Shown one piece after another: positions 3,629-20,613 of a stretch of DNA of 64,000 nucleotides; the stretch's first letter is position 1; each line of letters starts with the position of its first letter. A program made the position numbers and the translations under genes. Below the pieces are notes generated by a model. The model searched no databases and was not told where the DNA came from. It was given only the letters and a program-made list of their open reading frames with translations. Origin of the DNA: an uncultured Pirellulaceae bacterium (GTDB taxonomy: Bacteria > Planctomycetota > Planctomycetia > Pirellulales > Pirellulaceae); the NCBI GenBank assembly GCA_964384375.1, contig CAYLLN010000002.1, forward strand, positions 59,248-123,247, given 5' to 3'.

Positions 3629-6600
3629 TCACTCAATCATCCGCCGCAGCTGCACGCAGTTATCCGTATTCAGCTTTTGCCCATGCACATATCCCACCGG
3701 CACGCTCCGGTCGATGATCGAAAAGAACCGATGCCGCCGAATCTCTCCCGAGTCGGCCCCAATCTCCGGCCCCAGCCGCAACCCATCGGGATGCGCGGCA
3801 TTCACCACGGTCACGCCCCCCTGCACGTTATCCTCCACCTCGAAATATCCGATCGTCATCCACACCGCAAACACGTTCGAATGGGTCGTGAACGTATTCC
3901 CCAGCTTCTGCAACGCCTGATAGCGGAAGTAGGCGTTGCGGCGGGCATCCTGGTGGACTTGCGTCGCCCCCTGATTGTCGAATAGCGGCTGCGTGGCGGT
4001 GTCGGGATCGGGCCGCAAGAGCGTCGATTCCACGGGTGTCGCCCGTCGCATCGGCACTCCGCTGACCGCGATGTTTGGCATCAGGTCCGCGGCATCGCTC
4101 GGCCGGAACGGATTGCCAAACAGCGTCGGAATCGGATTGCCCGAGCCATCGGTCAGGCCGAGTGGCCCGCCCGTGAACCCCCGGCGGCTACGGCTGACCT
4201 TGTCCACAAAGGGCTGCGTATTCATCCCCGGGAACTGGCCAATCGCCGAACTCCACACTTCGCTGTCAAAAATCGTATTGATATTGATCAAGCCCGGATC
4301 GCGGAATCGCGACATCTTGTTGAACGGCGGCCGGAACAAGCCCGCCGCGCCAAAGTTCGCCGGGTTGTACCATCGCTCCGCACCCGTATAAGGCGACGGC
4401 ACTTCGACATAGTCGAGCAGCCGGTGCCACTGCGGCGAATTGGCGACGGACGCGTCGCTGTGGAAGAAGTTATTGAGGTGCATGAACGGCGCTCGCAAGT
4501 TCTGCGGTTGGCCGTTGTTGTAAACGCTGTTCGCCCCTGCTGGCAGAAAAGTCCCCAGGCCCGACGAGAACTCGACAAACCGACGCGACGGCGAGCTCGA
4601 CGGCACCTGCAACAATTCGAACGGATTGGCAAACGGCCGATTCAAATGCACCAGCCACGGCGCGGTCACTCCCACGGAGGAATCGACCTCGCCCAGATAG
4701 CCGGTCATCGCATTGAGCGGCGTTCCCACGGTCGGATTGAGAAACGGCAGCGAGTGCCGCGTGTTGTCCAGGCTCGGACGGAACCAAAGGCTGGCCGGTC
4801 CGGTCGGAACGCCGTTGTCATTAGGGGCATCGGTCCAGGCTGGCCACGGGTTAACCGGCGTGACCGGCGCACCTTGCGGAATTCCCCGCTGTCGCGTCGC
4901 CCACTTCATATTCGGGCGGCCCATCTGGGGATCGGAGGGGTCCAGATCTGTCATGTTGGCCTGGCGGTCCGTGTCCTCCTCGCCCGTGAATACCGTCACG
5001 TCGAGCGCCGCCCAATCGACCGTAATGTACGGGTTGCTCGCCGCGTTGTACGGCAAGAGCGGATTGGCCAGCCGCTGCAAATACATCGACGCCGCGTCGG
5101 TGTACGTCCCGGTCTGCGTCATCTGCGCTTCGCCGAGCGGGAAATTGCCGCGACTGTCGTACGGCTCATCGGGAAACGTCTTCTGCGGCGTTTCGGGATT
5201 GTCGTAGAGGTCAGCCGGAAAATTCCCCATCGCCGGCGGCGGATTCGGCAACGGTTCGGGATAGTACACGCCGGACAATGGCTCAGTAATGTTTAGACCG
5301 ATCGACGTAGCCGTTCCCCACACCGCGCCATTGATCGCGTCGGTCGGCGTTCCTTGCACATTGGCCACGATCGGAATTGCCACACGAATTTGCGTACCAA
5401 CTCCCTGCGTCGTCACGGTGCCGCTGGTGTCGGTGATCGTCATTCCGCCCGGTCCAAGCGTCAGGGTTTGCTGCGAGAAATCACCCCAGGCTTGTTCCTC
5501 GGCCGGATTCGGCGGCACCGTGGCCGGCGGTCCAACGGTCGCCGGATTGTGCGAGCCGAGGTACGTGAGCGCACGTGGCCCCACGATCGCATACTGCCCC
5601 GGTTCGAGCAGCGGATAAGCATTGAACGTGTTGTCCGCATAGAAGCTGCCGGTGGCGAGGGGGGACGCGCCGACGGTAGCCGCCAGATTGGCCTGCGTAT
5701 TGAACCACAGGTAACGCTCGAGCGGCACCGTACCCGGTGGGCCGGTCGGCACATTGTTCGTCCAGTTGCCGGCGACCAGGCTCACATCCCGCGGCTGATC
5801 AATCGGCGCGGGAGATGTCGCCTCAAACGAGCCACTCTCCAACCGTTCGGCCCCACCTCCAACCGTCGCCATCACGTTCGGTTTGATAGCATTCGGAAAA
5901 TCAGCGTTGACGTCGTTATAGCTCAGCTCCGAAAACGCGATTCGCCACACGGGCCAACCGTCAGGGGCAAGCTTGCCCAGTTCCAATTGGCCACCCGCAT
6001 TGTACAGCTCGCGCGGCCAACGGGGCTTTTGGTTCGCGAACCCCGCTCCGGCCCAGTTCCAACCACGCGTGCAATACAGTTCGATAAAGACCGAACCCTC
6101 GGGGCGGCGATACTGATCGAGGTCATCGTCCGGATTGGTCGTCGCCGTTCGCAACTCTTGATCGCCACCATCGTCGTCGGTATCTCGCACGCGTCGATCA
6201 TGGAACACCAGCGACTCATTCAGCAGCAGCTCGGGACTCTCCACACCCCAGACCAATCGTCGCTCAGGATGCGTGTCGTCAGGAGAGGTTCCGCCCACAA
6301 TCCCATCCACGATCCAGCCGTTCCAAGGATTGATGTCGTATTCAAACGGCGTCATGATCGCGTCGCTGTCGCGGAAATCGACCACATTGACCGCCCATTG
6401 CGCGATGCGGCGGATGTACAGCTCTCGCTTCTGCTGTGGTGTCAGAGTTCCTTCGTGCGGAAAGTTGGCGTTGAAGTTCGTGTTGTCGAAGAACAGCATC
6501 ACCAGGCAGAACAAATGCCGGGCATAAAGCTGCCGGGCCATCGCCCGGTCGAACGAGTTCACCGCACCGTCGCCGTTCACATCCACGCCGTTCGCGTGCT

Positions 6601-9127
6601 CGGCGTTGATCCCCGTGAATCCAGTCGGGCCACCCAGCCACGCCGTCTCGCGCGGTCCGTTATACGGTGCCACGTTGTAAGGGTTGGCGTTGCCCGGATC
6701 TGCGAACGATTCCGTTGGGTCGTCGTTCACGAAGTCCCCTGTCGAATCAAATCCGTCCCCCAGCCAGCGGTTGATGTTGAACTTCCCGCCATGCCGCAAT
6801 TCCCACGGCACGATTTTGTAGAAATCTTGGGCCACGTTCGTCGAACCGCCGCCGGTGAGCCGCTGCACGTACAGGTCGAGAATCGTCCTCTGACCCGGCA
6901 CATTGTTCTCGCGGTTGATCTGCGTGACGGCTGCTGCACCCGAGACGGATGGCGGCGCGACCGTGCCCGGCACTGGCAGGGATGCGCCGTGCGTTCGGAA
7001 ACGTTCGCGGTTGTCGTGCGTGCCGTCGATGAAGCCCGGCGCGCTGTTCAGGTAGCCCGCGGCAGCGACCAGCGGCCGGCTGGGCAGGTACTGCGCATCG
7101 GGATCGTGATGCCGCAAGAGCCGCTCCATCTCGACCAACGTGTACGGCGAATCGGCGTTCGTCAGCTCGCCGGAAAGCGAAATCTCATATGGATTGTCGA
7201 GCATTTCGTTGTTCAGGCCCGAGTAGGTGCTGATCGGCTGGCCGCCGTAATCGAGGACGTACGCCCCGCGCCCCCAGACGTCGGGCGGACTCGAATACCA
7301 GTTCCCCTCGCCCGGATAGTTGTTCGGCACGCCGTGCAGTTTCACGATCGAGAAGCCGTCGCGCTGATTGGGAATGCCCGGACCCGCCGTGTTGCCGGTA
7401 TCAACCGTCGGGCCAAGGCCGGTCAGATTCGACGCATAACGCTGCCGCAAGATGTTCTCGTAAGTGGCAACGTCGGGAACTCCGCCGCTGGAAAAGATGT
7501 TGACGAGATTCACCTCCGCCGGGCCGAAGCCGACGCCGCGCGGAAGTTGCGCGTTGTTGGCCAGGCCGAGCGTCACATTGGTTTGCACCAAATGATTCGG
7601 CTGCAGCTGCGCCAGGTTCCCATGCGTGTTCAGGTCGAGCCGCCCGTCCATGTCCTTGACCAGAATCGCCACCAGCCGCTTGTAGCGCTTGCCGTCGGGC
7701 GACGTGACCACCGGCAGGCCTGGATCAATCCAGATGCTGTCGGGCGTTTGATCGTTGTCGTTGTCCACATCCCACAGATTGGCGACGACGGGAGGTAGCA
7801 TCATCGGCTGAGGAGCCGGCGCATCCGTCGGATCACGCTTGAGGCCACGCAGATGGAGCAGAATGTCCGCATTCGTCGAATCGAACGCTGGATTACTCCC
7901 CGTGAAATTCGGATGATCCCACGGCATGGGCCTAAAAATGCAACCTCGCGTGATCGAATAGATTCGGTCCAATTGTTCGATGGGAACTGTCGCGTCATCG
8001 ACCCCCGGTTCCCGGATACCATTGGGACCATAAGGCTGGGAAATGTACTGGTACTGGTCGGCGGGCTGATTCACACCGGCGGGAGCCAGGATGCTGTTAT
8101 TGATGTACGTCAACCAATAATTCACCAGCTCCTGCCGGTGATATGATGGCAGGATCGGCAAGTCGTTGTTTGCCGCGTTGTCGGAATTCAACCGCGCGGC
8201 GGTTGGCGGGACCATCGCCAAAAACATGTTCTGATAATCGACGGCATCCCACGATTCGTCGTGATGCGTGGCATTCAAATACGCATCAACTCCGGCTTGC
8301 TGGGCCACCCCGTTCAGGAAAATCTGGCCGCGCGTCGGATCGTAGCCGTTGAAGTGCGGCAAGAGTGAAACCAGATCGAGTGTCGGCGGCGCGGGAGTAA
8401 TCGACGCGAAAGACAGGTCGCCGTACTGCGCGTCCATGTTCTCCTGACCGCCGCCGGCATAGTCATAACCTGCCCCCGGCCCGTTGAACGGCGCGCCGTT
8501 GATCGCAAAGTGATTGTTCAGCACCGGCTGGTTGATCGTCTCGTGGGCCGAGTAGTCGAGTTCGATAATAAACTGGGGCCCGCCAGCCATCGTCGGATCG
8601 TACTGCAGGATGCGGGCGCTATAGTTCGCCGCCGGCCCTTCGGTGAACGTCAGCACGCGGCCGCTGTAGTAATCGAGTATCTCAATGAGCGGCCCACCTT
8701 GCGATTGCAAGGCCGTGGGAAGCACCTGAAACGCATATGCCTGGCCCCCCCAGAAAAAGCCGTTATTGGGAGCAGCCGTCGAAAAGACCTTGGTGTTGTT
8801 GGTGGTGTTTCCGTCCGCGTCCGTGTTATAGACCGTGTCGTTCCCATACAAGTCTCCCAGCAGGCTGTGATACCGCATTGCCGAGCGAGCCGCCGTGTCG
8901 TAAAGCAACTGCCCCAGGACCAGGTCGAACTCCTTCTCGGGGAGGTCGCCATATTCATTTTGGCGCACTTCGATCTTCGTCGTCTGGAAGTAGTTCGTCG
9001 CCAGGATGGCATACGTCACGCCAATCAGCAAAAACAGCGCGAGGAGCGACACGACGAGGAGCAGGATCACGCCCCGCTTCCGCTTCCCCTTTGCGGCTGA
9101 CAACTTGCCGACATTGTTCGACGCCAT
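3629..9127 (-). CDS. giant (1832 aa) GspK-like minor pseudopilin / fibre-tip protein
   Basis: The N-terminus KRKRG-VILLLVVSLLALFLLIGVTYAILA resembles the GspK leader plus hydrophobic helix and lacks Glu at +5. IAQWAVNVVDFRDSD (~6362-6385) resembles the GspK DWxDxD motif. DPGLININTIFDSEVW (~4274-4297) resembles the GspK INxNTA motif. The C-terminal SNVFAVWMTIGYFEV...RRHRFFSIIDRS looks like pilin-type beta strands. It is the last gene of the pseudopilin operon. Confidence 0.6.
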   Translation of the reverse strand: MASNNVGKLSAAKGKRKRGVILLLVVSLLALFLLIGVTYAILATNYFQTTKIEVRQNEYGDLPEKEFDLVLGQLLYDTAARSAMRYHSLLGDLYGNDTVYNTDADGNTTNNTKVFSTAAPNNGFFWGGQAYAFQVLPTALQSQGGPLIEILDYYSGRVLTFTEGPAANYSARILQYDPTMAGGPQFIIELDYSAHETINQPVLNNHFAINGAPFNGPGAGYDYAGGGQENMDAQYGDLSFASITPAPPTLDLVSLLPHFNGYDPTRGQIFLNGVAQQAGVDAYLNATHHDESWDAVDYQNMFLAMVPPTAARLNSDNAANNDLPILPSYHRQELVNYWLTYINNSILAPAGVNQPADQYQYISQPYGPNGIREPGVDDATVPIEQLDRIYSITRGCIFRPMPWDHPNFTGSNPAFDSTNADILLHLRGLKRDPTDAPAPQPMMLPPVVANLWDVDNDNDQTPDSIWIDPGLPVVTSPDGKRYKRLVAILVKDMDGRLDLNTHGNLAQLQPNHLVQTNVTLGLANNAQLPRGVGFGPAEVNLVNIFSSGGVPDVATYENILRQRYASNLTGLGPTVDTGNTAGPGIPNQRDGFSIVKLHGVPNNYPGEGNWYSSPPDVWGRGAYVLDYGGQPISTYSGLNNEMLDNPYEISLSGELTNADSPYTLVEMERLLRHHDPDAQYLPSRPLVAAAGYLNSAPGFIDGTHDNRERFRTHGASLPVPGTVAPPSVSGAAAVTQINRENNVPGQRTILDLYVQRLTGGGSTNVAQDFYKIVPWELRHGGKFNINRWLGDGFDSTGDFVNDDPTESFADPGNANPYNVAPYNGPRETAWLGGPTGFTGINAEHANGVDVNGDGAVNSFDRAMARQLYARHLFCLVMLFFDNTNFNANFPHEGTLTPQQKRELYIRRIAQWAVNVVDFRDSDAIMTPFEYDINPWNGWIVDGIVGGTSPDDTHPERRLVWGVESPELLLNESLVFHDRRVRDTDDDGGDQELRTATTNPDDDLDQYRRPEGSVFIELYCTRGWNWAGAGFANQKPRWPRELYNAGGQLELGKLAPDGWPVWRIAFSELSYNDVNADFPNAIKPNVMATVGGGAERLESGSFEATSPAPIDQPRDVSLVAGNWTNNVPTGPPGTVPLERYLWFNTQANLAATVGASPLATGSFYADNTFNAYPLLEPGQYAIVGPRALTYLGSHNPATVGPPATVPPNPAEEQAWGDFSQQTLTLGPGGMTITDTSGTVTTQGVGTQIRVAIPIVANVQGTPTDAINGAVWGTATSIGLNITEPLSGVYYPEPLPNPPPAMGNFPADLYDNPETPQKTFPDEPYDSRGNFPLGEAQMTQTGTYTDAASMYLQRLANPLLPYNAASNPYITVDWAALDVTVFTGEEDTDRQANMTDLDPSDPQMGRPNMKWATRQRGIPQGAPVTPVNPWPAWTDAPNDNGVPTGPASLWFRPSLDNTRHSLPFLNPTVGTPLNAMTGYLGEVDSSVGVTAPWLVHLNRPFANPFELLQVPSSSPSRRFVEFSSGLGTFLPAGANSVYNNGQPQNLRAPFMHLNNFFHSDASVANSPQWHRLLDYVEVPSPYTGAERWYNPANFGAAGLFRPPFNKMSRFRDPGLININTIFDSEVWSSAIGQFPGMNTQPFVDKVSRSRRGFTGGPLGLTDGSGNPIPTLFGNPFRPSDAADLMPNIAVSGVPMRRATPVESTLLRPDPDTATQPLFDNQGATQVHQDARRNAYFRYQALQKLGNTFTTHSNVFAVWMTIGYFEVEDNVQGGVTVVNAAHPDGLRLGPEIGADSGEIRRHRFFSIIDRSVPVGYVHGQKLNTDNCVQLRRMIE

Positions 9128-9156
9128 GGCTCTGCTCTCTCTGTTCGCGGAAATTG

Positions 9157-9226: not shown

Positions 9227-9228
9227 CC

Positions 9229-10326
9229 TCATTCCAGCCGAATCGTCTTCTCATACACGCCGACGACCCCTTCGACGACGACGGCGCGCGGGTTCGTCGC
9301 CGTCGTGTCCCAGTCGGAGCCGGCCAGCGTGACGTACCGCTCGTAATTGGTTCCGTTGTACGTGACCTCGGCTTCGGTATCGCTCACACGGTACCACTTG
9401 AACGTGGGAACCAAGGTCGATTGTGCGTTGGAGACGCGCCCCGACAACATCAACCAGTCGTTCGGCCGCAGGTTGAGCGCCGCCTCGGTTGCTGCGGTGA
9501 GTAGCACCTCGCCGCCGCCGACGCCGCCGCCCGTGAAACCGACGTTCACCGTTCGTTCGTCGGCCAGGGAAAACGTCGCGGCCCCCTCGTCATAGCCGAA
9601 GCTCGTCGGTCGGTCGTAGAACACGACGATCGACAGCACGTAGTTCTCGTTGAAGGTTGCCGTATAACGTTCGAGCTTCGGTACTACCGTCGCCATCCAC
9701 GACATGTGACCGTCCGTGAGACGCCGGGCACGTGTGCCAACGACCGAAGGCAAGTCCTCAAATTCCTGCGTCGGCGCGAGCGAGTTGTCGTCGGGCCGCT
9801 GGTAGGTGAGATCATCACTAATGGTGAAGACCGAATCCGCCAGTAGCTTCCCCATTGGTTGTGTCGTTGGGCCGTTGTTGCTGACCGTGCAGCGCAGCAT
9901 GGCTGCTTCACCGGTCGTCGCGTCGTAAGGAAACTGCCTCGCACCAGTACGGCGTGCCGGAGTAGCGTCATTGGCCGCGATCATCCGCGGATCGATGCAG
10001 AATGCGTTGCCATAAACGAATGGCAGCGAAGCCAGCGGCATTCCCGACACCAGCCGATATTGCGGCGTTCCGTTGGGATCCCAGGCAATCCACGACGACA
10101 TCCCGCGCCGCATGCCGCGGGCGTCGAATTCGTGAACGCAGGTCATGGCGGCGACGGCCGTGGCGTCGTTGATTCGCCCCTTGCGGGCCTGGGAGCTGGC
10201 GACGGGGAGCAAGGCCAACGCGCCGAACAGGCCGATCGTCGTCACCAGGATGGCGAACAGCACCTCGATGAGGCTCACGCCGCGGCGCAACTTGGAACCT
10301 GAAACTTGGAACTTGGAACGTTGCAT
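9229..10326 (-). CDS. prepilin-type N-terminal domain protein, large minor pseudopilin (GspJ position)
   Basis: ATG at 10326 overlaps the upstream stop (TGATG). Leader MQRSKFQVSGSKLRRG followed by VSLIEVLFAILVTTIGLFGALALL, with Glu at +5. An alternative in-frame TTG at 10290 would give the leader MRRG. Confidence 0.7.
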   Translation of the reverse strand: MQRSKFQVSGSKLRRGVSLIEVLFAILVTTIGLFGALALLPVASSQARKGRINDATAVAAMTCVHEFDARGMRRGMSSWIAWDPNGTPQYRLVSGMPLASLPFVYGNAFCIDPRMIAANDATPARRTGARQFPYDATTGEAAMLRCTVSNNGPTTQPMGKLLADSVFTISDDLTYQRPDDNSLAPTQEFEDLPSVVGTRARRLTDGHMSWMATVVPKLERYTATFNENYVLSIVVFYDRPTSFGYDEGAATFSLADERTVNVGFTGGGVGGGEVLLTAATEAALNLRPNDWLMLSGRVSNAQSTLVPTFKWYRVSDTEAEVTYNGTNYERYVTLAGSDWDTTATNPRAVVVEGVVGVYEKTIRLE

Positions 10327-11540
10327 CACTGGCCTCCCGTCAATTCGCGGCCGGTGGCCAGGGCCCGGCATTCTTCGAGGAACTCGGCCCGGTCGGCCCC
10401 CCACGGATCGGCACTGTGATTGGCGTGATCCACGTCGGGGAAGTTTTCGCTGGTCGTGATCGAGCCATTCAGCCGGCCGACGCTGACCCAGAAGTTGTTG
10501 GGATCGCCGAGGTTCGAGTTGGCGGCGGTGATCGGCACTCCCGTCACATCCTGAGCCACCTTCTCCACGCGACCGATGAGAAAGTGCAGCGTTCCCAGGG
10601 GCGCATCACCGAAACCGCCGTCGAGCGAGACGCTTTTCACCGAGCCACCCGGCTCAAACAACAGCACGAGGCGGTTGTTGGCCGCGCCGAACTGCGTGCC
10701 GGTCGGTCCGTAACCGCTGTATTCGATGTCGATGCAGGTGCCTGCGGAAAGCTCCAGCGGATTGCCAACGCGCCGCGGCTGGCGAAGTATTTGATAGCGA
10801 AAGCCGTAGGACGCTCCGTTGCCAGCACCGGGGGGCTGCACGGAACTGGACGTTGGTCCGACGTAATAGAAGCGACTGGGATCGGGGTATGTCGCATTGC
10901 CGGTCAGCCCGCGAACGCAGCCGTACCAATCTCCCTTGAAATCGAACCGGACCATGAACGCTTCGCCCGGCTCGATGAGATTCTGCAGGTAAACAATTTC
11001 GTTGTTATCGGTGTCGATTCGACCGTCGGGCGGGCCGGGCAGCACGTCCGTGCCGGTTAGCGGAACGAATTGAAATGGATCGTTCGTGGGATCAGGTTCG
11101 CGGCGAATGATCGCCCGCGACGACGTGGTGCTGCCGGAATACGGCGCCTGCACCTCGGCCAGATAAATGCGGGTGACCTGGCGGACGAAGTTGCCGGGCG
11201 AGTCCACGTGTCCCACCGGCGCGTCGTATTCCATCCACAAACCGAACGGGCGGTTGTTGCGGGCGGCATAGGCGCGGGCCATCGCCAGGTGGCCGTTGAG
11301 CTGGCGACTTGCCTCGCGGGTCCGGTTGCTCTCCATCACGCTCTTGGCCACCGGCAGCGCTGCCGCGATGAGGATCAGGATGATCATCACCACGACGAGG
11401 AGCTCGACGAGCGTGTAGCCCGCGCGGGGCTGGATTGGCCCCAATGTCGCCGTTCGCTCCGCGAACGGGCGTGCTTCCCGACGTTCGTTCGCGGAGCGAA
11501 CGACGACAATCGAGCGGTCGTATTGGCAAGTGCTAAGCAT
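10326..11540 (-). CDS. prepilin-type N-terminal domain protein, large minor pseudopilin (GspI position)
   Basis: Motif PRAG-YTLVELLVVVMIILILIAAALP. ATG at 11540 overlaps the upstream stop (TAATG) but gives a 41-aa leader that spans a REP hairpin. An in-frame TTG at 11444 would give the leader MGPIQPRAG. Confidence 0.7.
   Translation of the reverse strand: MLSTCQYDRSIVVVRSANERREARPFAERTATLGPIQPRAGYTLVELLVVVMIILILIAAALPVAKSVMESNRTREASRQLNGHLAMARAYAARNNRPFGLWMEYDAPVGHVDSPGNFVRQVTRIYLAEVQAPYSGSTTSSRAIIRREPDPTNDPFQFVPLTGTDVLPGPPDGRIDTDNNEIVYLQNLIEPGEAFMVRFDFKGDWYGCVRGLTGNATYPDPSRFYYVGPTSSSVQPPGAGNGASYGFRYQILRQPRRVGNPLELSAGTCIDIEYSGYGPTGTQFGAANNRLVLLFEPGGSVKSVSLDGGFGDAPLGTLHFLIGRVEKVAQDVTGVPITAANSNLGDPNNFWVSVGRLNGSITTSENFPDVDHANHSADPWGADRAEFLEECRALATGRELTGGQ
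11452..11501. repeat. perfect 16-bp inverted repeat (REP-like hairpin)
   Basis: GTTCGCTCCGCGAACG (11452-11467) and CGTTCGCGGAGCGAAC (11486-11501) with an 18-nt loop. Lies in the leader region of the 10326-11540 gene. Confidence 0.85.
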
Positions 11541-12634: not shown

Positions 12635-12657
12635 GGCAGCACCCCGTCGCGAGGACC

Positions 12658-12672
12658 GCGACCACTGGTCGC
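12658..12672. repeat. module B palindrome GCGACCACTGGTCGC
   Basis: Located in the 49-nt gap between two pseudopilin genes. Same palindrome family as at 2839, 2879 and 3504. Confidence 0.8.
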
Positions 12673-12683
12673 GGCTATGTGTG

Positions 12684-13732: not shown

Positions 13733-15145
13733 CTAGCTCAAGCCTTGGATGAGCGAAATGAGCGGGAGGAACAGGGCGATGACGATGAAGCCGACCGCAC
13801 CGCCGAGAAAGACGATGAGGAGAGGCTCGATCAATTTCATGAGGCCGTCGGTGAGCGTGGTCACTTCCTCGTCGAAGAGGTCGGCGACCTTGTAGAGCAT
13901 CGTGTCGAGCTCGCCCGTTTCTTCGCCGACGTCGACCATGTTCACGACCAGTTCATCGACGAACCGGGCGTTCATTTTCAAGAGGTACCAGCAGCAACCG
14001 AGAAAACCGGCGCCAAACAGACCCAACATGAGCCATTGCAAGCCGATCTGCGCGATCATCCCCGGCATCGACATGATGATGAGCGGGACCAGCGCCCCGC
14101 TCATGAACCAAAGGAAAAGGGCGACGGGATGAAAGCCGGGGCGGCCGTTGGCGGCCATCGGCCGGGCGATCGTTTCGCCCTCGCGGATGGCGTCGGAGAC
14201 TTTGCCGTACATCCGCTCGAAGACGGCATTGCCGGCCGTTTCGCGGGTGATGTTCAGCCCTTCGAGAATGGGGACGCCGGAGGAGACGAGCGTGCCGAGG
14301 GTACGCGTCGTGCGGGCCATCGTGTTCTTCTCGATGAGCATGCCGATGATGGGCCATTTGAGGACGAACATGTCCCAGCCCATGCGGCCGTGCTTGAACT
14401 TTTTGAGGAGCTTGACAAACAGCCAGATCACGACCGGGATGAGGGGGATCGAGAACCAGCCGTATTTGACGACCCAGTTGGAGATGTTGATGAGGATGAC
14501 CGTCATGACGGGGAGCTTGAGGCCGAACTCCTCGAACATCTTTTGGAAGACGGGGACGATCTTGAGCATGATGAACGTGAGGATGCCGACGGCGACGAGG
14601 ATGACGACGATCGGGTAGATCATCGCCCCCTTCACTTTGCGTTTGAGTGATTCGCTCCGTTCGAGAAACTCGGAGAGGCGACGGAGAATGACTTCCAGAG
14701 CGCCGCCCGCCTCGCCCGCCTTGATCATGTTGATGTAAAGGCGGTTGAAGACCTTGGGAGATTTGGCCATCGCCTCGGAGAGCGTGGCCCCCGATTCGAT
14801 TTCGTCGCCGACGTCGGCGATGGCGTTTTTCAGGCGGCCAGGCTTTTGCTGTGCTTCCAGAATGCGGAGGCTGCGGAGAATCGGCAGGCCGGCATCCTGT
14901 AGAATCGAGAGCTGCTTGGTGAAAAGCGCGAGCTTTTTGGAGCTGGCGCCGCCAAAGGACATGCTCCGTTTCTTTTTGCCGCCGGCCATGCCGGGCTTGG
15001 CCTGCCCCTTCTTCACAGAGATCTTGGTGACGAAGTAGCCCATTTGGCGAATGGTCGCCTGGGCTTCTTCTTCGCTCTGGGCGTCGATCACATCCTTGAT
15101 CTCCTGGCCCGTCGCGTCCATCGCTTCGAATTGATAAGTCGGCAT
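13733..15145 (-). CDS. gspF: type II secretion / type IV pilus platform protein GspF/PilC family
   Basis: MPTYQFEAMDATGQEIKDVIDA... N-terminus. Two T2SSF repeats (KQLSILQDAGLPILRSL and RTLGTLVSSGVPILEGL). VGEETGELDTML motif. 470 aa because of an extra hydrophobic insertion. Confidence 0.9.
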   Translation of the reverse strand: MPTYQFEAMDATGQEIKDVIDAQSEEEAQATIRQMGYFVTKISVKKGQAKPGMAGGKKKRSMSFGGASSKKLALFTKQLSILQDAGLPILRSLRILEAQQKPGRLKNAIADVGDEIESGATLSEAMAKSPKVFNRLYINMIKAGEAGGALEVILRRLSEFLERSESLKRKVKGAMIYPIVVILVAVGILTFIMLKIVPVFQKMFEEFGLKLPVMTVILINISNWVVKYGWFSIPLIPVVIWLFVKLLKKFKHGRMGWDMFVLKWPIIGMLIEKNTMARTTRTLGTLVSSGVPILEGLNITRETAGNAVFERMYGKVSDAIREGETIARPMAANGRPGFHPVALFLWFMSGALVPLIIMSMPGMIAQIGLQWLMLGLFGAGFLGCCWYLLKMNARFVDELVVNMVDVGEETGELDTMLYKVADLFDEEVTTLTDGLMKLIEPLLIVFLGGAVGFIVIALFLPLISLIQGLS

Positions 15146-15157
15146 TGCGCGTCTCCG

Positions 15158-15222: not shown

Positions 15223-15224
15223 TC

Positions 15225-16943
15225 TTAGGCTTCTAGGATCGTTTCTCGAACCACTTCGTCCAGCGTCGTCGTGCCTTCGAAGGCGAAGTTCAATCCCGCT
15301 TCACGGAGCGAGACCATACCAGCACTCTGAGCTGCCTTGCGGAGGTCGTCGATCGAGGCGTTGTTCATCACCAGGTCGCGCAGCTCGTCGTTCATCAGCA
15401 TCAGCTCGAAGAGGCCGACGCGACCCTTGTAGCCCGTGTTGTTGCAGACTTCGCAGCCGCGGCCGCGGAAGACCTTTTTGCCGATCATCTCCTCGACCTT
15501 CTTGCCCAGGTCCAGGAGGAGTTCTTCCGACGGCGTGACTTCCTCGCGGCATTGGCTGCAGACGCGGCGGACGAGGCGCTGGGCGAGAATTGCCTCGACG
15601 GTGGCCGTGATGAGGAACGTGGGGACGCCCATGTCCTTCATGCGGGTGATCGTGCTCGGGGCGTCGTTGGTGTGCAGCGTGCTGAATACCATGTGGCCGG
15701 TGAGCGAGGCCTGCACGGCGATTTGCGCCGTCTCCAGATCGCGGATTTCGCCGACGAGGATGATGTCGGGGTCTTGCCGCAGAATGGCCCGGAGGCAGGC
15801 GGCAAAGGTGACGTCGATCTCGGCATCGATGGGAATCTGTACGATGCCGTCGATGTCGTATTCGACGGGGTCCTCGGTGGTAATGAGCTTGTCTTCGAGG
15901 CTGTTGAGCTCGCTGAGGGCGGAATAGAGCGTGGTTGTTTTGCCCGAACCGGTGGGCCCGGTGACGAGCACAATGCCGTTGGGGCGAGCGATGACTTCGC
16001 GGAAGGCCTTGAGCGTGGGGGGGTCCATGCCGACCTTGCCCAAGTTGAGCGAAACGACCGAGCGATCGAGCACCCGGATAACGACGCTTTCGCCGAACAT
16101 CGTGGGGAGAACTGCGACGCGGAGATCGACGGGGTGGCCGCCGACCGTGAGCTCGATGCGACCGTCCTGCGGGAGGCGGCGCTCGGCAATATCGAGGTTC
16201 GCCATCACTTTGATGCGGGTCGTAATGGCAAACGCCAGGTGGCGCGGCGGCGGCACCATTTCGAACAGCACGCCGTCGGCTTTGATGCGAATGCGGAATT
16301 CGTCCTCGAAAGGCTCGAAGTGGATGTCGCTGGCGTGATCCTTGATCGCCAGGAGGAGCACCATGTTGAGGAGCTTGCGGACGGGAGCGCTGTCGGCCAG
16401 GGCCTCGACATCGGCGAGTTCCATCGGCTTGCCCGCCTCCAGGGCGCTCATCGTCTTCTTCAGGGTCGCGTCCTCTTCGATATCGGTGATGATCTTTTCG
16501 ATCGTGTCCTTCTCGGACGAGTAGTACTTGTCGATCGTCTTCATGACGTCGGTTTCGCCGGCGATCACGACCTTGACCTCGTGCCCGAGGAGCGAACGCA
16601 GCTCATCCTGAATCGTGATGTTCTGCGGATCGCACGTGGCGACGGTGAGGCGATTCCCCTCAAAGTGGATCGGGATGGCGCGGTAGAGCTGGGCCATCGA
16701 CTCGGTCACCCGCTTGAGCACGTCGTGCGGGATCGTCATCTCGCCGAGATCGACGATCTGCATCCCCATCTGCTCGGAAAGGGCCTGCACGAGCTGCTCT
16801 TCGGTGAGCATGTTCAGGTCTTGGGCGAGCTTGCCGATCAGCGTGCCGGGGCGCTGCTGCTGCTCTTCGAGCAACATCTGGAGTTGCTCGTCGGAGATGA
16901 AGCCCATATCGACGAAGATTTGACCGATGCGACGGATAGCCAT
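15225..16943 (-). CDS. gspE: GspE/PilB-type assembly ATPase with MshEN-like N-terminal domain
   Basis: Walker A GPTGSGKTTT. Asp box and His box (LTGHMVFSTLHTNDAPS). Tetracysteine CSQC...CEVC. N-terminus RIGQIFVDMGFISDEQLQMLLEEQ. Confidence 0.92.
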   Translation of the reverse strand: MAIRRIGQIFVDMGFISDEQLQMLLEEQQQRPGTLIGKLAQDLNMLTEEQLVQALSEQMGMQIVDLGEMTIPHDVLKRVTESMAQLYRAIPIHFEGNRLTVATCDPQNITIQDELRSLLGHEVKVVIAGETDVMKTIDKYYSSEKDTIEKIITDIEEDATLKKTMSALEAGKPMELADVEALADSAPVRKLLNMVLLLAIKDHASDIHFEPFEDEFRIRIKADGVLFEMVPPPRHLAFAITTRIKVMANLDIAERRLPQDGRIELTVGGHPVDLRVAVLPTMFGESVVIRVLDRSVVSLNLGKVGMDPPTLKAFREVIARPNGIVLVTGPTGSGKTTTLYSALSELNSLEDKLITTEDPVEYDIDGIVQIPIDAEIDVTFAACLRAILRQDPDIILVGEIRDLETAQIAVQASLTGHMVFSTLHTNDAPSTITRMKDMGVPTFLITATVEAILAQRLVRRVCSQCREEVTPSEELLLDLGKKVEEMIGKKVFRGRGCEVCNNTGYKGRVGLFELMLMNDELRDLVMNNASIDDLRKAAQSAGMVSLREAGLNFAFEGTTTLDEVVRETILEA

Positions 16944-16948
16944 GGGAG

Positions 16949-17056: not shown

Positions 17057-18214
17057 TTAGTGGCCGCCGTGGCCGCCGCCGGGTTTGGGGGCGGCGTTCA
17101 GGTCTTCGCCCGGCTTCATACCCGCGTTGGGGTCTTCCATGATGCCGCGTTGGTGATTGACGATCCGTTTGGCGAGTTCGTCCGGATTGTGGGCTTTCGA
17201 CAGGACTTCCTCGATGACGCACTTCTCTTCCTTCCAGAGCTTGAAGAGGGCGTCGTCCATGAGCTGCATGCCGAATTTGGCCCCGGTCTGAATCGCCGAG
17301 TTGATGCGGAATGTTTTGTTCTCGCGGATCAGGTTCGCGATGCCGGGCGTAACGACGAGGATTTCGTACGCGGCACAGCGGCCGCCGCCGACCTTGGGAA
17401 GAAGCGTTTGTGCGACAACGCCGATGATCGCCGTGGAAAGCTGCGTGCGGATCTGGTCCTGCAAGTTGCCGGGGAAGGCGTCGATGATGCGGTTGATGGT
17501 GCCCTGGGCGCTGTTCGTGTGCAGCGTGCCGAAGACGATGTGCCCCGTTTCGGCGGCGGTAATGGCCGATTCGATCGTTTCCAGGTCGCGCATTTCGCCG
17601 ACGAGGATCACGTCCGGGTCTTGGCGGAGGGCGCGGCGAATCGCCTCGGAAAAGCTCGGCACATCGACGCCGATCTCGCGCTGGTTGATCGTCGATTTTT
17701 TGTGCCAGTGATAAAACTCGATCGGATCTTCGATTGTGATGATGTGGTGATCGACGTTCTCGTTGATGTAGTTGACGAGGCTGGCCAGGGTGGTGCTCTT
17801 GCCCGAGCCGGTGGGGCCGGTGACCAGGAACAGACCGCGGGGGCGAAGGACGAGCTTCACGCAGACGTCGGGCAGGCCGAGCTGCTGCGGCGTGAGCATG
17901 TTGTTCGGAATCTGCCGCAGCACCATCGAGACATTGCCGCGCTGCTTGAAGATCGAAACGCGGAAGCGGGCCAGGTCGCCGAACGCAAAGCCAAAGTCGG
18001 CGCTCCCCTTTTCCTGCAGCTCCTTCTGGCAGCGGTCGGGTGCGATGCTCTTCATCAGAGCCACGGTGTCGTCGGGCTCGAGCACCTTCGTTTCGAGCTT
18101 GCGCATGCGGCCGTGCAGTCGGAAGACCGGCGGCTGGCCGACGACGATGTGAATATCGCTGGCTCCCTGCTTCACGCAGGCTTGGAGCAGCTTATCGATG
18201 AGAATGGTGGCCAT
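17057..18214 (-). CDS. pilT: PilT-type twitching-motility (retraction) ATPase
   Basis: MATILIDKLLQACVKQGASDIHI N-terminus. Walker A GPTGSGKSTT. GHIVFGTLHTNSA. PilT signature variant GIANLIRENK. No N-terminal T2SSE_N domain. Gly/His-rich C-terminal tail. Confidence 0.92.
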   Translation of the reverse strand: MATILIDKLLQACVKQGASDIHIVVGQPPVFRLHGRMRKLETKVLEPDDTVALMKSIAPDRCQKELQEKGSADFGFAFGDLARFRVSIFKQRGNVSMVLRQIPNNMLTPQQLGLPDVCVKLVLRPRGLFLVTGPTGSGKSTTLASLVNYINENVDHHIITIEDPIEFYHWHKKSTINQREIGVDVPSFSEAIRRALRQDPDVILVGEMRDLETIESAITAAETGHIVFGTLHTNSAQGTINRIIDAFPGNLQDQIRTQLSTAIIGVVAQTLLPKVGGGRCAAYEILVVTPGIANLIRENKTFRINSAIQTGAKFGMQLMDDALFKLWKEEKCVIEEVLSKAHNPDELAKRIVNHQRGIMEDPNAGMKPGEDLNAAPKPGGGHGGH

Positions 18215-18438
18215 GAGCGATCCCCACGGAGCGAGCGCGACATACCACGTGCGAAGACATCTCGCGCGGCGGCGGCACTAGAACCCGTGTATGTGAACGA
18301 AAGGTGCGGGAGCGATGAAGATCGCACACCCACAGCGTGTCGTTGTGCTTCAGCTAGAGGTCTGTTCCGAACTCTGAGCAAATCCAGGGGGGGCAGCGAA
18401 TCGTGATGGGATGAAATAAAGGAAGAGTCCGCCTGCAA

Positions 18439-18543
18439 TTCACTGCACTTCAATCGTGTCGCGCGGGACCGGTCGATCCGGCGACGCTGTGATTATTCGC
18501 CAGCCGATGCGCCAAGGCGAAACTGGGAACGAAGTGCAGTGAA
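18439..18543. repeat. 13-bp perfect inverted repeat with 79-nt spacer in the long pilT upstream region
   Basis: TTCACTGCACTTC (18439-18451) and GAAGTGCAGTGAA (18531-18543). Confidence 0.7.
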
Positions 18544-18668
18544 ATAGTCGCTGCTTTCAGTTTAATTGGTGCAGGTGGATGGGTGCGAGGAAAAACCACC
18601 GACTGTGAGCAAGCTTCCAGCCTGCCAAACCACTCCGACCACAGTGGTCGAGCACGTCTTCAACGTCG

Positions 18669-18686
18669 CGCGGTGCAAGCACCGCG
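18669..18686 (-). terminator. GC-rich hairpin just downstream of the gspE2 stop (weak terminator candidate)
   Basis: On the minus strand, CGCGGTG-CTTG-CACCGCG (7-bp stem, 4-nt loop) lies ~35 nt after the stop at 18721. A CGACCACTGTGGTCG palindrome follows. There is no U-tract. Confidence 0.3.
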
Positions 18687-18720
18687 GCGGAAATGACGGA
18701 CTTAGTTCAGCGAGTATGCA

Positions 18721-20448
18721 CTACGCCGTAATCACGTCCTGCTCGGTCCGCTTGGCATTGCGATAGACCTCTTCCAGCGTCGTGACCCCTTTCACGACCT
18801 TGGCAATTCCATCGACGTAAAGCGTTTTCATCCCTTGAGTTATCGCTTGCTTGCGGATTTCGACCGACGAGATGTTCTGAAAAATCATCTCGCGAATTTT
18901 GGAGTTCACCAGCATCAGCTCGAAGATTCCCTGGCGGCCGCGGAAGCCACCCTTGTTGCAGTTGGAGCAGCCTTTGCCCTTCGAGAAGTGAGCCTTGGCG
19001 GCCATCTTGGCCGGAATCCCGGCATCGCGGATGACGCTTTCGGGCAGTTGAATTTGCTGTTTGCACTTGGGGCAGATGATGCGGACCAGACGCTGGGCCA
19101 AAACCGCAATAACGGAAGAGGCAACCAGATAGTTGGGTACTCCGATATCGACCATGCGCGTCACAGCACTAGGCGCATCGTTCGTGTGTAGAGTACTGAA
19201 AACTAAGTGTCCAGTTAAAGAAGCCTGGATACCCATGCTTGCCGTTTCATTGTCGCGCATTTCGCCGACGAGGATGATGTTCGGGGCTTGTCGCAGCATC
19301 GAGCGGATAATGCGTGCAAAGTCGAGCCCGATGCTGTGCTTCACCTCGACCTGGTTGATACCGGGCAGGTAATACTCGACCGGCTCCTCGGCGGTGATGA
19401 TCTTTCGATCAGGTCGGTTGAGGGCGTTGAGGGCGGCATAGAGGGTCGTGGTCTTGCCGGAACCAGTCGGCCCCGTGACCAGGATGATGCCGTTGGGACG
19501 GCGGATGAGCTGAGTGAACGTCTGAAAGTTCTCGTCCGACAGGCCAAGCTGTCGCACCCCCACTTTGATGTTGTCCTTGTCGAGGATACGCATGACCACG
19601 GACTGGCCGTGGTTCGTGGGGATGATGCTGACGCGGAGATCCAGGTCCTTGTCGCCGGCAGTGATCTTGATGCGGCCGTCCTGCGGACGGCGGCGTTCAG
19701 CAATGTCCATTTTCCCCAGAATCTTGATGCGGGAAACGATGGCAGCGAGCAAGCGGCGGGGCGGGCTGTCACGTTTGTGCAGCATGCCGTCAATTCGATA
19801 ACGAATGCGGACGACGTCCTCGAACGGCTCGACGTGGATATCCGAGGCCCGAAGCTGCACCGCCTCTTTGATCATCAGGTCCACGAGGCGGACGATCGGG
19901 GCGCTGTTCTCATCGACCTGCTCGGTGGCCCCCACCGCGGTGGTGGTCGCTGTTTCCGTGAAGTCGATTGCCGTGTCGGTGAATTCCTGGAGCACCGAGT
20001 CGGCCGATTCGCCTTCGATCTGGCTGTAATACTTGTTGATCGCTTCGAGGATTTTCTCGCGGGGGGCGAGGGCGATTTCGATCCGGCGATTCAGAATAAA
20101 TCGGAGCTTTTCGACCGTGTCGATGTCGTAGGGATCGCTGACGATCACCTTCAGGGCGTCCTCATCCTCGGCCAACGGGAGGATGACGTTCTCGCGGGCG
20201 ACCGATTCGGGGACGAGTTCGATGATTGGCTCGGGAATCGCCACTTCGGTCAGATCGACGTAATCGCGGCCGTGCTCCTGGGCGACGGCCCGCATCACGT
20301 CCTCGCCGGAGGCGTAGCCAAGCTTGATGATGCACTCGGCCAGGCTGCTGTTCTGGTCCTTGCTGACCTGCCGGGCCTCGTTGAGCTGATCCTGGCTGAT
20401 GATGCGGCGGCGGAGGAGGATTTCGGTAAAGTCGCCTTTGCGAGCCAC
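18721..20448 (-). CDS. pilB: second GspE/PilB-type assembly ATPase
   Basis: T2SSE_N-like N-terminus. Walker A GPTGSGKTTT. LTGHLVFSTLHTNDAPS. Tetracysteine CPKC...CSNC. 575 aa. Confidence 0.92.
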   Translation of the reverse strand: MARKGDFTEILLRRRIISQDQLNEARQVSKDQNSSLAECIIKLGYASGEDVMRAVAQEHGRDYVDLTEVAIPEPIIELVPESVARENVILPLAEDEDALKVIVSDPYDIDTVEKLRFILNRRIEIALAPREKILEAINKYYSQIEGESADSVLQEFTDTAIDFTETATTTAVGATEQVDENSAPIVRLVDLMIKEAVQLRASDIHVEPFEDVVRIRYRIDGMLHKRDSPPRRLLAAIVSRIKILGKMDIAERRRPQDGRIKITAGDKDLDLRVSIIPTNHGQSVVMRILDKDNIKVGVRQLGLSDENFQTFTQLIRRPNGIILVTGPTGSGKTTTLYAALNALNRPDRKIITAEEPVEYYLPGINQVEVKHSIGLDFARIIRSMLRQAPNIILVGEMRDNETASMGIQASLTGHLVFSTLHTNDAPSAVTRMVDIGVPNYLVASSVIAVLAQRLVRIICPKCKQQIQLPESVIRDAGIPAKMAAKAHFSKGKGCSNCNKGGFRGRQGIFELMLVNSKIREMIFQNISSVEIRKQAITQGMKTLYVDGIAKVVKGVTTLEEVYRNAKRTEQDVITA

Positions 20449-20585
20449 GGTCGAACCTTTCGTGATGCCGCCACCGCGCGCGGGCTGCGGCGACGAGAAC
20501 CTGCACCTGTTCCGCTAGACAAGAGGGTGCGGCGGGCCTTCACCCAGTCCGGCACTGCCGGCGCGCACCCCTGCTGACAAGTCTC

Positions 20586-20613
20586 ATTGTGAGTTCTTTG
20601 CGGGCAATGTCAA
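20586..20613 (-). promoter_or_regulatory. sigma70-like promoter candidate for the secretion/pilus operon
   Basis: On the minus strand: TTGACA, a 16-nt spacer, then CACAAT, ~140 nt upstream of the gspE2/pilB ATG. Planctomycete promoter rules are poorly known. Confidence 0.3.

What the first reader, a model, noticed from the sequence alone, without database searches (positions are those of the whole stretch)
3629..20613. Secretin-less E-F-G-H-I-J-K operon with an embedded PilT: a T2SS/T4aP hybrid fibre machine
Nine co-directional genes are packed tightly, several with overlapping stop/start codons (TAATG at 11540, TGATG at 10326). In order they are a PilB/GspE ATPase, a PilT retraction ATPase, a second GspE ATPase, and a GspF platform. 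These are followed by four proteins with prepilin-type N-termini (G-FTLVEML, A-FTLMELL, G-YTLVELL, G-VSLIEVL) and a giant GspK-like protein. The E-F-G-H-I-J-K order is the classical T2SS order. Four things are not classical. PilT is a type IVa pilus hallmark. There are two extension ATPases. Every pilin-like protein is about 2-5x the usual 120-330 aa. No secretin (GspD/PilQ), GspC/L/M, PilM/N/O/P or prepilin peptidase gene occurs in the operon or elsewhere in the 64 kb. A tip complex of more than 3000 residues is hard to reconcile with a periplasmic piston passing through a canonical secretin. A retractile surface fibre with a very large tip is the more natural reading.
Basis: partly seen in the sequence, partly recalled or inferred. 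Interest (0 to 1): 0.85.

Follow-up and report, generated by a model that had tools for sequence, protein, structure and literature searches.

The report
Conserved planctomycete pilus-like machine, giant cap
This is a real nine-gene cluster, conserved across hundreds of planctomycete species, for a type IV pilus-like filament machine with oversized subunits and a 1,832-residue cap protein of unknown fold; a cluster with the same layout is essential for growth in a related planctomycete, yet nobody knows what it does.

Summary
On the minus strand lie PilB-like ATPase E1, PilT, PilB-like ATPase E2, a PilC/GspF platform, four prepilin-type proteins (315-404 aa) and a 1,832-aa protein with a GspK/PilX-type N-terminus (invariant Gly, no Glu+5).

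The order is kept in essentially every related locus with enough flank. At least 567 species-level genomes, labelled Pirellulales where an order is given, carry a relative of the giant protein. That protein has no Pfam, NCBIfam or PDB match, and its family has about 3,200 representatives.

- Both E proteins resemble type IVa PilB most closely.
- The E-F-G-H-I-J-K mapping is wrong in detail. The GspJ-like pseudopilin is missing here. In other genomes it sits after the giant gene or stands alone.
- "Secretin-less" cannot be concluded from 64 kb. This system's genes are dispersed in relatives.

A locus with the same order and gene sizes in Planctopirus limnophila (Plim_0410-0401) is essential by Tn-seq, apart from pilT. 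A separate pilM cluster is also essential there. The three pilQ-like genes can each be deleted. Orthology rests on gene order and size, not on sequence.

Verdict: an uncharacterised, probably core, variant of the type IV filament machines.

The parts
20586..20613 (-). sigma-70-like promoter match (TTGACA-16-CACAAT) upstream of E1
   Evidence: a consensus match only. The region holds fewer such matches than shuffled sequence.
18721..20448 (-). E1, a PilB-type assembly ATPase (575 aa) with a degenerate N-terminal MshEN c-di-GMP motif
   Evidence: T2SSE 441 bits. TIGR02538 PilB 611 bits (cutoff 676). Best PDB match is Myxococcus PilB 3JC8, 476 bits. NF053729 scores 29.6, below its cutoff of 38.
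18215..18720 (-). 506-nt gap between E1 and pilT. It may hold an internal promoter or regulatory region.
   Evidence: The gap is 49-657 nt in 23 loci, with no conserved ORF. Operon-mapper also splits E1 from the rest in P. limnophila.
17057..18214 (-). PilT-family retraction ATPase (385 aa)
   Evidence: TIGR01420 450.3 bits, cutoff 319.1, matched over the full length
15225..16943 (-). E2, a PilB-type assembly ATPase (572 aa) with a canonical MshEN c-di-GMP-binding motif
   Evidence: NF053729 scores 45.9, above its cutoff of 38. Best PDB matches are Geobacter and Myxococcus PilB, 536-539 bits. E2 is 42% identical to E1.
13733..15145 (-). PilC/GspF inner-membrane platform (470 aa) with about 65 extra hydrophobic residues
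   Evidence: T2SSF 194 bits. GspF 370 bits (cutoff 424), PilC 346 bits.
12684..13631 (-). p1, the putative major subunit: a prepilin-type protein (315 aa) with a GspG-like N-terminal region
   Evidence: N_methyl 28.6 bits. T2SSG 21.7 bits over the N-terminal part only. AF2 pLDDT 93, with a 52-residue alpha-1 helix and an alpha/beta head. F10 and E14 are invariant in 40 orthologues.
12654..12676 (-). 9-bp GC-rich hairpin just after the p1 stop codon, a copy of a palindrome repeated downstream of K
   Evidence: The folding z-score is only -1.0, and the hairpin is not conserved in all loci.
11540..12634 (-). p2, a second prepilin-type protein (364 aa)
   Evidence: N_methyl 25.6 bits. E22 is invariant. 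37 of 38 orthologues match N_methyl.
10326..11540 (-). p3, a prepilin-type protein (404 aa) with a GspH/FimU-like N-terminal region
   Evidence: GspH TIGR01708 37 bits and Verru_Chthon cassette D 41 bits, both below cutoff. Pfam GspH matches 3 of 40 orthologues.
9229..10326 (-). p4, a prepilin-type protein (365 aa from ATG 10326) with a PilV/GspI-type N-terminus
   Evidence: PilV TIGR02523 24.8 bits (cutoff 52). E21 is invariant. The start overlaps the p3 stop (TGATG).
3629..9127 (-). K, a giant protein (1832 aa) with a class-III-like signal lacking Glu+5; the proposed filament cap
   Evidence: G19 is invariant and followed by a hydrophobic stretch without Glu. Conservation runs along the whole length. 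There is no Pfam, NCBIfam or PDB match.
2750..3628 (.). repeat-rich non-coding stretch downstream of K that ends the cluster
   Evidence: It holds four copies of one GC-rich palindrome and three of another, against a chance expectation of about 0.

Best explanation
This is the Pirellulales form of a conserved type IV filament machine. Its motor is of the type IVa pilus kind and its fibre genes form a T2SS-style pseudopilin set.

Inferred mechanism:
1. A prepilin peptidase encoded elsewhere cleaves p1-p4 after the conserved Gly or Ala, and probably cleaves K too.
2. p3, p4, a GspJ-like protein encoded elsewhere in this genome, and K form the priming and tip complex on the PilC-type platform. 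K is the cap: it lacks Glu+5, so nothing can sit above it.
3. The two non-redundant PilB paralogues polymerise p1, perhaps with p2, beneath that cap. E2 is probably c-di-GMP responsive.
4. PilT takes the filament apart again.
5. The alignment proteins (PilM and partners), the peptidase and any outer-membrane conduit are supplied in trans from other loci.

Shown: gene identities, conserved N-terminal signals, conserved synteny, and a confident pilin-like model of p1.

Inferred: assembly order, K as cap, dynamics, and where the filament sits.

The layout-equivalent locus is essential in P. limnophila, so the machine probably serves a core envelope, secretion or uptake function rather than optional adhesion.
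For: - PilT passes its curated cutoff.
- E1 and E2 align over their full length to type IVa PilB of Myxococcus and Geobacter (476 and 539 bits). They align to EpsE (4PHT) only from residue 103-105, at 393-418 bits.
- E2 passes the MshE c-di-GMP motif model.
- The N-terminal signals are conserved across 38-66 orthologues each. Glu+5 is invariant in p1-p4 and absent in K, where G19 is invariant.
- The p1 model has pLDDT 93, a 52-residue N-terminal helix and an alpha/beta head. The only PDB neighbours are pilins and pseudopilins.
- The order E1-T-E2-F-p1-p2-p3-p4-K recurs in essentially all loci with enough flank. 567 species-level genomes hold a K relative.
- A GspJ-like sixth pseudopilin lies after K in 10 of 56 loci. 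NCBI names some members GspJ/PulJ.
- An A24 N-domain protein lies near the cluster in five loci, four of them labelled Thermoguttaceae.
- In P. limnophila, Plim_0410-0401 has the same order. Gene lengths back-calculated from the insertion indices are 565, 370, 570, 419, 352, 370, 360, 468, unknown, and 1599 aa. All are essential except pilT. pilM Plim_0076-78 is also essential.
- The cap concept, a K-type minor pilin supplying the last beta-strand in cis, comes from PMC13533445.
Against: - K matches no GspK/PilX/PilY1 model or structure. Its AF2 model is poor (pLDDT 55.6), so the cap role rests on the N-terminus, gene position and analogy.
- The head domain of p1 has no significant structural neighbour (best Foldseek E = 0.23, helix only).
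- No filament has been tied to these genes.
- Orthology with the P. limnophila locus rests on order and lengths, not on sequence.
- E1, E2, F and p1 all score below the curated equivalog cutoffs of both PilB/PilC and GspE/F/G.
- The peptidase-like proteins near the Thermoguttaceae-type loci hit only the A24 N-domain, not the catalytic domain.
Confidence: 0.68

Rival explanations
1. The machine builds a T2SS-like endopilus that stays in the enlarged planctomycete periplasm. It pushes or presents cargo, for instance the very large family of prepilin-signal DUF1559/SBP_bac_10 proteins, or it tethers the inner and outer membranes. PilT resets it. On this reading the essential function needs no dedicated secretin.
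For: - The fibre genes form a pseudopilin-style set (G-like, H-like, I-like, J-like, K-like).
- p1 weakly hits T2SSG in 7 of 40 orthologues and SBP_bac_10 in 2 of 40.
- In P. limnophila the inner-membrane parts are essential, while each of the three pilQ-like genes can be deleted and the two genes annotated as secretins are non-essential by Tn-seq.
- Planctomycetes carry 41 to more than 100 N_methyl proteins per genome. Two DUF1559 proteins are essential.
- Press-stud-like links between the two membranes are seen at crateriform structures.
Against: - The ATPases are closer to PilB than to GspE, and no GspC/L/M is present.
- A PilT-family ATPase is not part of classical T2SS.
- The secretins may simply be redundant.
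- A 1,832-residue cap is large for a confined piston.
Confidence: 0.2
2. One reading: a truly secretin-less T2SS/type IVa hybrid builds a retractile surface fibre with a very large tip. The fibre crosses the outer membrane by a non-secretin route, such as the crateriform structure.
For: - No secretin lies in the 64 kb, nor in about 10 kb beyond the window start.
- No conserved secretin gene was found next to the cluster in the related loci.
- Pili-like fibres 12 nm wide arise from large crateriform structures and bind dextran in P. limnophila and Gemmata. Their genes are unknown.
- A 315-aa major subunit would fit a thicker-than-usual fibre (inference).
Against: - Absence from a window is not absence from a genome. 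Type IVa pilus genes are usually split over several loci, and this system's J-like gene, pilM and A24 genes are demonstrably dispersed.
- P. limnophila has pilQ-like genes.
- Nothing links this operon to the observed fibres.
Confidence: 0.1

Closest known systems
Type IVa pilus machines of the Myxococcus/Geobacter kind (PilB-PilT-PilC, minor pilins, PilY1)
   Same: - The PilB-type ATPases carry an N-terminal MshEN domain, and their best PDB matches are Myxococcus and Geobacter PilB.
- A bona fide PilT-family ATPase is present.
- There is a PilC-type platform.
- There is a set of minor-pilin-like proteins plus a very large tip-associated protein.
- The pilB-pilT-pilC adjacency is also seen in Myxococcus (my own knowledge).
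   Different: - There are two PilB paralogues.
- The subunits are 2-3 times larger.
- The large protein is itself pilin-like, with an N-terminal class-III-type signal. It is not a PilY1 that docks in trans.
- No pilMNOPQ or pilD lies nearby.
- The layout-equivalent locus is essential, whereas type IVa pili are dispensable in model bacteria.
Type II secretion system pseudopilus (GspG-H-I-J-K)
   Same: - p1 has a GspG-like N-terminal region. p3 is GspH-like and p4 is GspI/PilV-like at the N-terminus.
- A J-like protein exists in the family.
- The last member lacks Glu+5, as GspK does.
   Different: - No GspC/D/L/M is present.
- PilT is present.
- All curated Gsp equivalog cutoffs are missed.
- K is about 5.5 times the size of GspK and does not hit the GspK models.
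- J is not in the operon here.
Plim_0410-Plim_0401 locus of Planctopirus limnophila (Rivas-Marin et al. 2023, PMC10632474)
   Same: - The annotated order is the same: T2SS E, twitching-motility protein, T2SS E, T2SS protein, then planctomycete-restricted hypotheticals.
- The inferred sizes match, including a final protein of about 1,599 aa.
- E1 is split from the downstream operon in both.
   Different: - It has six hypotheticals rather than five.
- It belongs to a different order (Planctomycetales).
- Sequence-level orthology could not be tested here.
- It is described only as 'related to secretion'.
TadG/CpaL of Tad pili, and GspK as 'cis' providers of the terminal beta-strand (Ellison et al. 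2026, PMC13533445)
   Same: A single large pilin-like tip protein carries its own body. It ends in a conserved C-terminal strand region (consensus ...RHRAFYIIDRS...LLRRxIE) that AF2 places in a beta-sheet.
   Different: The motor family differs (Tad uses CpaF/TadBC). K is about three times larger. The AF2 confidence for the last strand is low (pLDDT about 50).
Verru_Chthon cassette proteins (TIGR02596-02599; protein A recalled from memory)
   Same: These are multi-gene cassettes of prepilin-like proteins in the PVC superphylum. They include a very large member. The p3 N-terminus hits cassette protein D (41 bits).
   Different: All scores are below cutoff (70), and K hits no NCBIfam model at E <= 0.1.

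Membership tests
Type IV pilin / pseudopilin (class III signal peptide) | Basic leader ending in Gly/Ala, hydrophobic +1, Glu at +5, about 20 hydrophobic residues; the N_methyl model | tested here: met
   p1-p3 pass the Pfam N_methyl cutoff (28.6, 25.6 and 27.7 against 21.2). p4 scores 18.1, but 27 of 39 orthologues match. Glu+5 is invariant in all four alignments.
Type IV pilin / pseudopilin (class III signal peptide) | Pilin fold: long N-terminal alpha-1 helix packed on a beta-sheet head | tested here: inconclusive
   The p1 AF2 model (pLDDT 93) has helix 12-63, then helices, then 5-6 short strands. Foldseek aligns only the helix to pilins (best E = 0.23). p2-p4 were not modelled.
PilT/PilU retraction ATPase | Score above the curated cutoff of TIGR01420 over the full length | tested here: met
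   450.3 bits against 319.1; residues 6-346 match model positions 2-343
Type IVa PilB (TIGR02538 equivalog) | Score above the curated cutoff; MshEN N-domain plus ATPase | tested here: not met
   E1 scores 610.7 and E2 642.2, both below the cutoff of 675.65. The architecture and the best PDB matches are nevertheless PilB.
T2SS GspE/GspF/GspG (TIGR02533, TIGR02120, TIGR01710) | Scores above the curated cutoffs | tested here: not met
   E1 592 and E2 603 (cutoff 630). F 370 (cutoff 424). p1 53 (cutoff 89).
T2SS as a system | GspD secretin and GspC/L/M encoded with the E-F-G-K genes | tested here: not met
   None is in the 64 kb or about 10 kb beyond the window start. The whole genome is not available.
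Type IVa pilus as a system | PilM/N/O/P/Q and PilD present in the genome | not testable with these tools
   They are absent from the window. In P. limnophila, pilM (essential), A24 and pilQ-like genes lie elsewhere.
GspK / PilX minor pilin | Pilin-like N-terminus lacking Glu+5 | tested here: met
   G19 is invariant. The consensus is RRGxVLLxVxSLLALF without Glu, in 20-66 homologues.
GspK / PilX minor pilin | Match to the T2SSK or PilX_N models, or to the GspK structure | tested here: not met
   No Pfam or NCBIfam hit at E <= 0.1. A profile against PDB sequences found nothing. Foldseek on the C-terminal 737 residues found nothing, on a poor model.
MshE-type c-di-GMP-binding N-domain | NF053729 motif model above its cutoff | tested here: met
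   E2 scores 45.9, above 38. E1 scores 29.6 and does not pass.
GspJ / PilW minor pilin | A J-type pseudopilin encoded in the operon | tested here: not met
   tblastn with six J-like proteins against the window finds only the shared N-terminal helices of p1-p3. The J-like gene follows K in 10 of 56 loci and stands alone in L083 and L084.

The most novel reading that the evidence does not exclude
The operon encodes an essential filament machine found across the class Planctomycetia. Its oversized pilins and 1,600-2,300-residue cap would build the thick fibres and trans-envelope 'press-stud' assemblies of crateriform structures. On this reading a type IV filament has been turned into a core organelle for macromolecule capture, uptake or envelope integrity, and its essential role does not depend on any single secretin.
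Probability: 0.25. Interest if true: 0.9.

Novelty: new variant of a known kind. Interest (0 to 1): 0.68.

Why it matters
Type IV pili and T2SS are dispensable in standard laboratory culture of the usual model bacteria (my own knowledge). Here a conserved variant appears to be essential in the one planctomycete tested. It has two extension ATPases and a retraction ATPase. It has a cap protein family of about 3,200 representative clusters with no annotation, domain model or structural neighbour.

A 2025 review states that the players behind the fibre-mediated macromolecule uptake proposed for planctomycetes remain unknown (PMC12673574). This operon gives that question concrete, testable candidate genes. 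It would also widen the known design range of type IV filaments, with a giant in-cis cap and subunits of twice the normal size.

Tried and rejected
1. A profile of the giant protein against all PDB sequences gave only a chance hit on the N-terminal transmembrane segment.
2. AF2 of K residues 1096-1832 with 50 homologues gave pLDDT 55.6. Foldseek against PDB found nothing below E = 1.7. The N-terminal 1,095 residues were aligned (A4) but not modelled, because the second job went to p1.
3. Foldseek of the confident p1 model aligned only the N-terminal helix to pilins.
4. Profiles of p1-p4 against PDB sequences matched N-terminal helices only.
5. By eye, the C-terminal motifs of p1 and p2 (AGQDG, DNITNH) looked GspG-like. 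HMMs do not confirm this for p2, so it stays a lead.
6. Rfam found nothing in the window.
7. The gap between E1 and pilT has no conserved ORF.
8. I tried to reach P. limnophila proteins by name through cluster look-ups and the third homologue search. No Planctopirus entry surfaced, so orthology stays inferred.
9. Extending about 10 kb beyond the window start found only polysaccharide-synthesis genes.
10. The 139-aa ORF overlapping the K stop codon was rejected as a gene. It lies in repeat-rich sequence with no conservation.
Full report
**What is there**

The cluster lies on the minus strand. Reading 5' to 3', with domain assignments:
- E1, 18721-20448, 575 aa: T2SSE 441 bits plus an MshEN domain.
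- PilT, 17057-18214, 385 aa: TIGR01420 450 bits against a cutoff of 319.
- E2, 15225-16943, 572 aa: T2SSE 459 bits plus MshEN.
- F, 13733-15145, 470 aa: T2SSF 194 bits.
- p1, 12684-13631, 315 aa.
- p2, 11540-12634, 364 aa.
- p3, 10326-11540, 404 aa.
- p4, 9229-10326, 365 aa from the ATG.
- K, 3629-9127, 1832 aa.

So are the overlapping stop and start codons TAATG and TGATG. Two details differ. The stated end, 20613, is a promoter-like hexamer and not coding sequence. E1 is separated from pilT by 506 nt.

I scanned 30 flanking ORFs across the 64 kb. They encode housekeeping and typical planctomycete proteins. None is a secretin, an A24 peptidase, PilM/N/O/P or GspC/L/M.

**Is it more than chance?**

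Yes. The giant protein has 195 word-index homologues, all 'hypothetical' and all without a Pfam domain. A scan of one genome per species found at least 567 genomes that encode a relative. Where the record titles name an order, it is Pirellulales, including Anatilimnocola, Blastopirellula and Thermoguttaceae.

In the 78 loci fetched, every locus with enough upstream flank except one shows the order E1-T-E2-F-p1-p2-p3-p4-K, allowing for a few missed weak matches. The exception, L068, is a second K copy in a MAG that also has L053.

An exhaustive HMMER search with K residues 860-1832 found 3,198 representative clusters at 50% identity with E <= 0.001. So this is a large protein family with no domain model and no functional annotation.

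**The motor**

E1 and E2 are 42% identical. By eye, both keep a Walker A motif, a Walker B-type motif and a four-cysteine motif. Both score slightly higher against PilB than against GspE in NCBIfam, and both fall below either curated cutoff. Against solved structures they align over their full length to Myxococcus and Geobacter type IVa PilB, at 476 and 539 bits. They align to Vibrio EpsE (4PHT) only from residue 103-105, at 393-418 bits.

E2 passes the MshE-type c-di-GMP motif model (45.9 against a cutoff of 38). E1 does not (29.6). PilT is a clear family member.

From my own knowledge, the pilB-pilT-pilC arrangement also occurs in Myxococcus. An embedded pilT therefore fits a type IVa motor and does not by itself make a chimera.

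**The fibre genes**

I built alignments of 38-40 orthologues taken from the loci. They show invariant Glu+5 and conserved Gly/Ala-Phe/hydrophobic cleavage motifs in p1-p4. K instead has an invariant Gly19 followed by a hydrophobic stretch with no Glu, which is the hallmark of GspK/PilX-type cap subunits.

The N-terminal regions resemble known subunits as follows:
- p1: major pilins and GspG.
- p3: GspH/FimU and Verru_Chthon cassette protein D.
- p4: PilV/GspI.

All of these similarities stop after the N-terminal helix.

AF2 gave a confident p1 model with pLDDT 93. It has a 52-residue alpha-1 helix, then a helical insert, a small beta-sheet and a C-terminal loop. That topology is pilin-like. 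Foldseek, however, found no significant neighbour for the head domain.

A sixth prepilin-like protein of 450-650 aa lies directly after K in 10 of 56 loci. NCBI names some members of its family GspJ/PulJ. In other genomes it stands alone among unrelated genes. The window lacks it.

**The giant protein**

K is conserved along its whole length. It has acidic motifs with invariant residues, such as WDVDNDxDxxxDSIWID, KDxDGRxN and VVDFRDxD. These look like calcium sites, but that is inference from sequence. Its C-terminus is highly conserved (...NVFAVWxTVGYFEV...RHRxFxIIDRS...LLRRxIE).

It matches no Pfam, NCBIfam or PDB sequence. AF2 of the C-terminal 737 residues was poor (pLDDT 55.6). The best part is a C-terminal beta-sheet region with pLDDT 67-86. 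Foldseek found nothing.

'GspK-like' therefore rests on the N-terminus, the gene position and analogy. The analogy is to recent work showing that K-type subunits (GspK, TadG/CpaL) supply the final beta-strand of the tip complex in cis, whereas PilY1 supplies it in trans (PMC13533445).

**Is it secretin-less?**

Within the window, yes. As a property of the system, this cannot be concluded. The system's genes are dispersed in relatives:
- The J-like gene stands alone in some genomes.
- Five loci, four of them labelled Thermoguttaceae, have a protein with the A24 N-terminal domain 2.3 kb downstream of K.
- P. limnophila has three pilQ-like genes elsewhere (PMC11958385).

**The key outside evidence**

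The Tn-seq study of Planctopirus limnophila (PMC10632474) singles out Plim_0410-0401. The annotations are T2SS protein E, twitching motility protein, T2SS protein E and T2SS protein, followed by six hypotheticals restricted to Planctomycetes.

Its supplementary table classes every gene as essential, with insertion indices of 0-0.0056 against about 0.13 for neighbouring genes. The exception is pilT, which is 'unclear' at 0.022. A second, non-essential pilT exists elsewhere.

I back-calculated gene lengths from the insertion indices. They come to 565, 370, 570 and 419 aa for the four motor genes, then 352, 370, 360 and 468 aa, one unknown, and 1,599 aa. The ATPase lengths match those in the window. 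The series ends in a giant protein, as here. Operon-mapper also splits E1 from the eight-gene operon, which fits the gap between E1 and pilT in the window.

In the same data, pilM Plim_0076 and the two hypotheticals that follow it are essential. The Tad loci and the two genes annotated as secretins are non-essential. Each of the three pilQ-like genes can be deleted.

I could not obtain the Plim sequences. Orthology is therefore inferred from order and size only. I put it at about 0.8.

**Most likely mechanism**

This is a type IVa-motor filament machine with a pseudopilin-style subunit set and a giant in-cis cap. Its peptidase, alignment proteins and any outer-membrane conduit are encoded elsewhere.

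Which filament it builds is open. Boedeker et al. saw 12-nm pili-like fibres that arise from large crateriform structures and bind dextran. They also saw press-stud-like junctions between the inner and outer membranes (PMC5394234). A 2025 review says the players are still unknown (PMC12673574).

A 315-aa major subunit and an essential phenotype make this operon a good candidate for such a core structure. That link is speculation. The main rival is a periplasmic, T2SS-like endopilus that handles the very large family of prepilin-signal DUF1559 proteins.

**Novelty and verdict**

The components belong to known families, so this is not categorically new. The layout-equivalent locus has been noted in print as essential and 'related to secretion'. 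No function, structure or name exists for the five or six fibre proteins.

I rate it a new variant of a known kind. Interest is fairly high because of the likely essentiality, the two PilB paralogues together with PilT, and the large protein family without any domain model.

Noticed in passing
window 2790-3523 and 12654-12676: There are two families of GC-rich palindromic, REP-like repeats. GTAGGTCCGCCCnGCCGGGGCGGACCT occurs four times. AGCCGCGACCAnTGGTCGCG occurs three times downstream of K, and once more in the 49-nt spacer right after the p1 stop codon. The chance expectation is about 0. The copy after p1 could damp read-through into the minor-pilin genes.
   Followed up: partly
window 18215-18720: The gap between E1 and pilT is 506 nt. 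In 23 related loci it ranges from 49 to 657 nt, with no conserved ORF. Rfam found nothing anywhere in the window. It may hold an internal promoter, which would fit the operon split reported for P. limnophila.
   Followed up: partly
window 13733-15145 (F, residues about 335-400): The platform protein is about 65 residues longer than GspF/PilC models. The GspF model aligns to residues 4-334 and then resumes later. The extra stretch is hydrophobic and could form two further membrane helices.
   Followed up: no
L029, L041, L054, L076, L079, about 2.0-2.5 kb downstream of K: These proteins of 280-305 aa hit the A24 peptidase N-terminal domain strongly (120 bits). They do not hit the catalytic Peptidase_A24 domain at E <= 0.05. 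By eye, the second catalytic GxGD motif appears to be absent. They may be divergent or inactive prepilin peptidases.
   Followed up: partly
L068 (same MAG as L053): A second copy of the giant gene sits in a different context, with none of the E/T/F/pilin genes in the 10 kb upstream. Some genomes therefore carry an extra, orphan K paralogue.
   Followed up: no
window 20818-21813 (minus strand): A 331-aa protein with an N-terminal membrane segment and a long proline-rich region lies directly upstream of E1 on the same strand. It has no Pfam match. I did not test whether it belongs to the system.
   Followed up: no
P. limnophila Plim_0076-0078 (literature, not in the window): pilM and the two hypothetical genes after it are all essential by Tn-seq, like the Plim_0410-0401 locus. 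They may be the PilM/N/O-type partners of this machine.
   Followed up: no
L082 1249-11179 (sequence beyond the window start): A block of polysaccharide-synthesis genes lies just downstream of the cluster. It includes glycosyltransferases, an asparagine synthase-like protein and a PMT_2 protein. More glycosyltransferase and epimerase genes lie at window 59216-63979.
   Followed up: no
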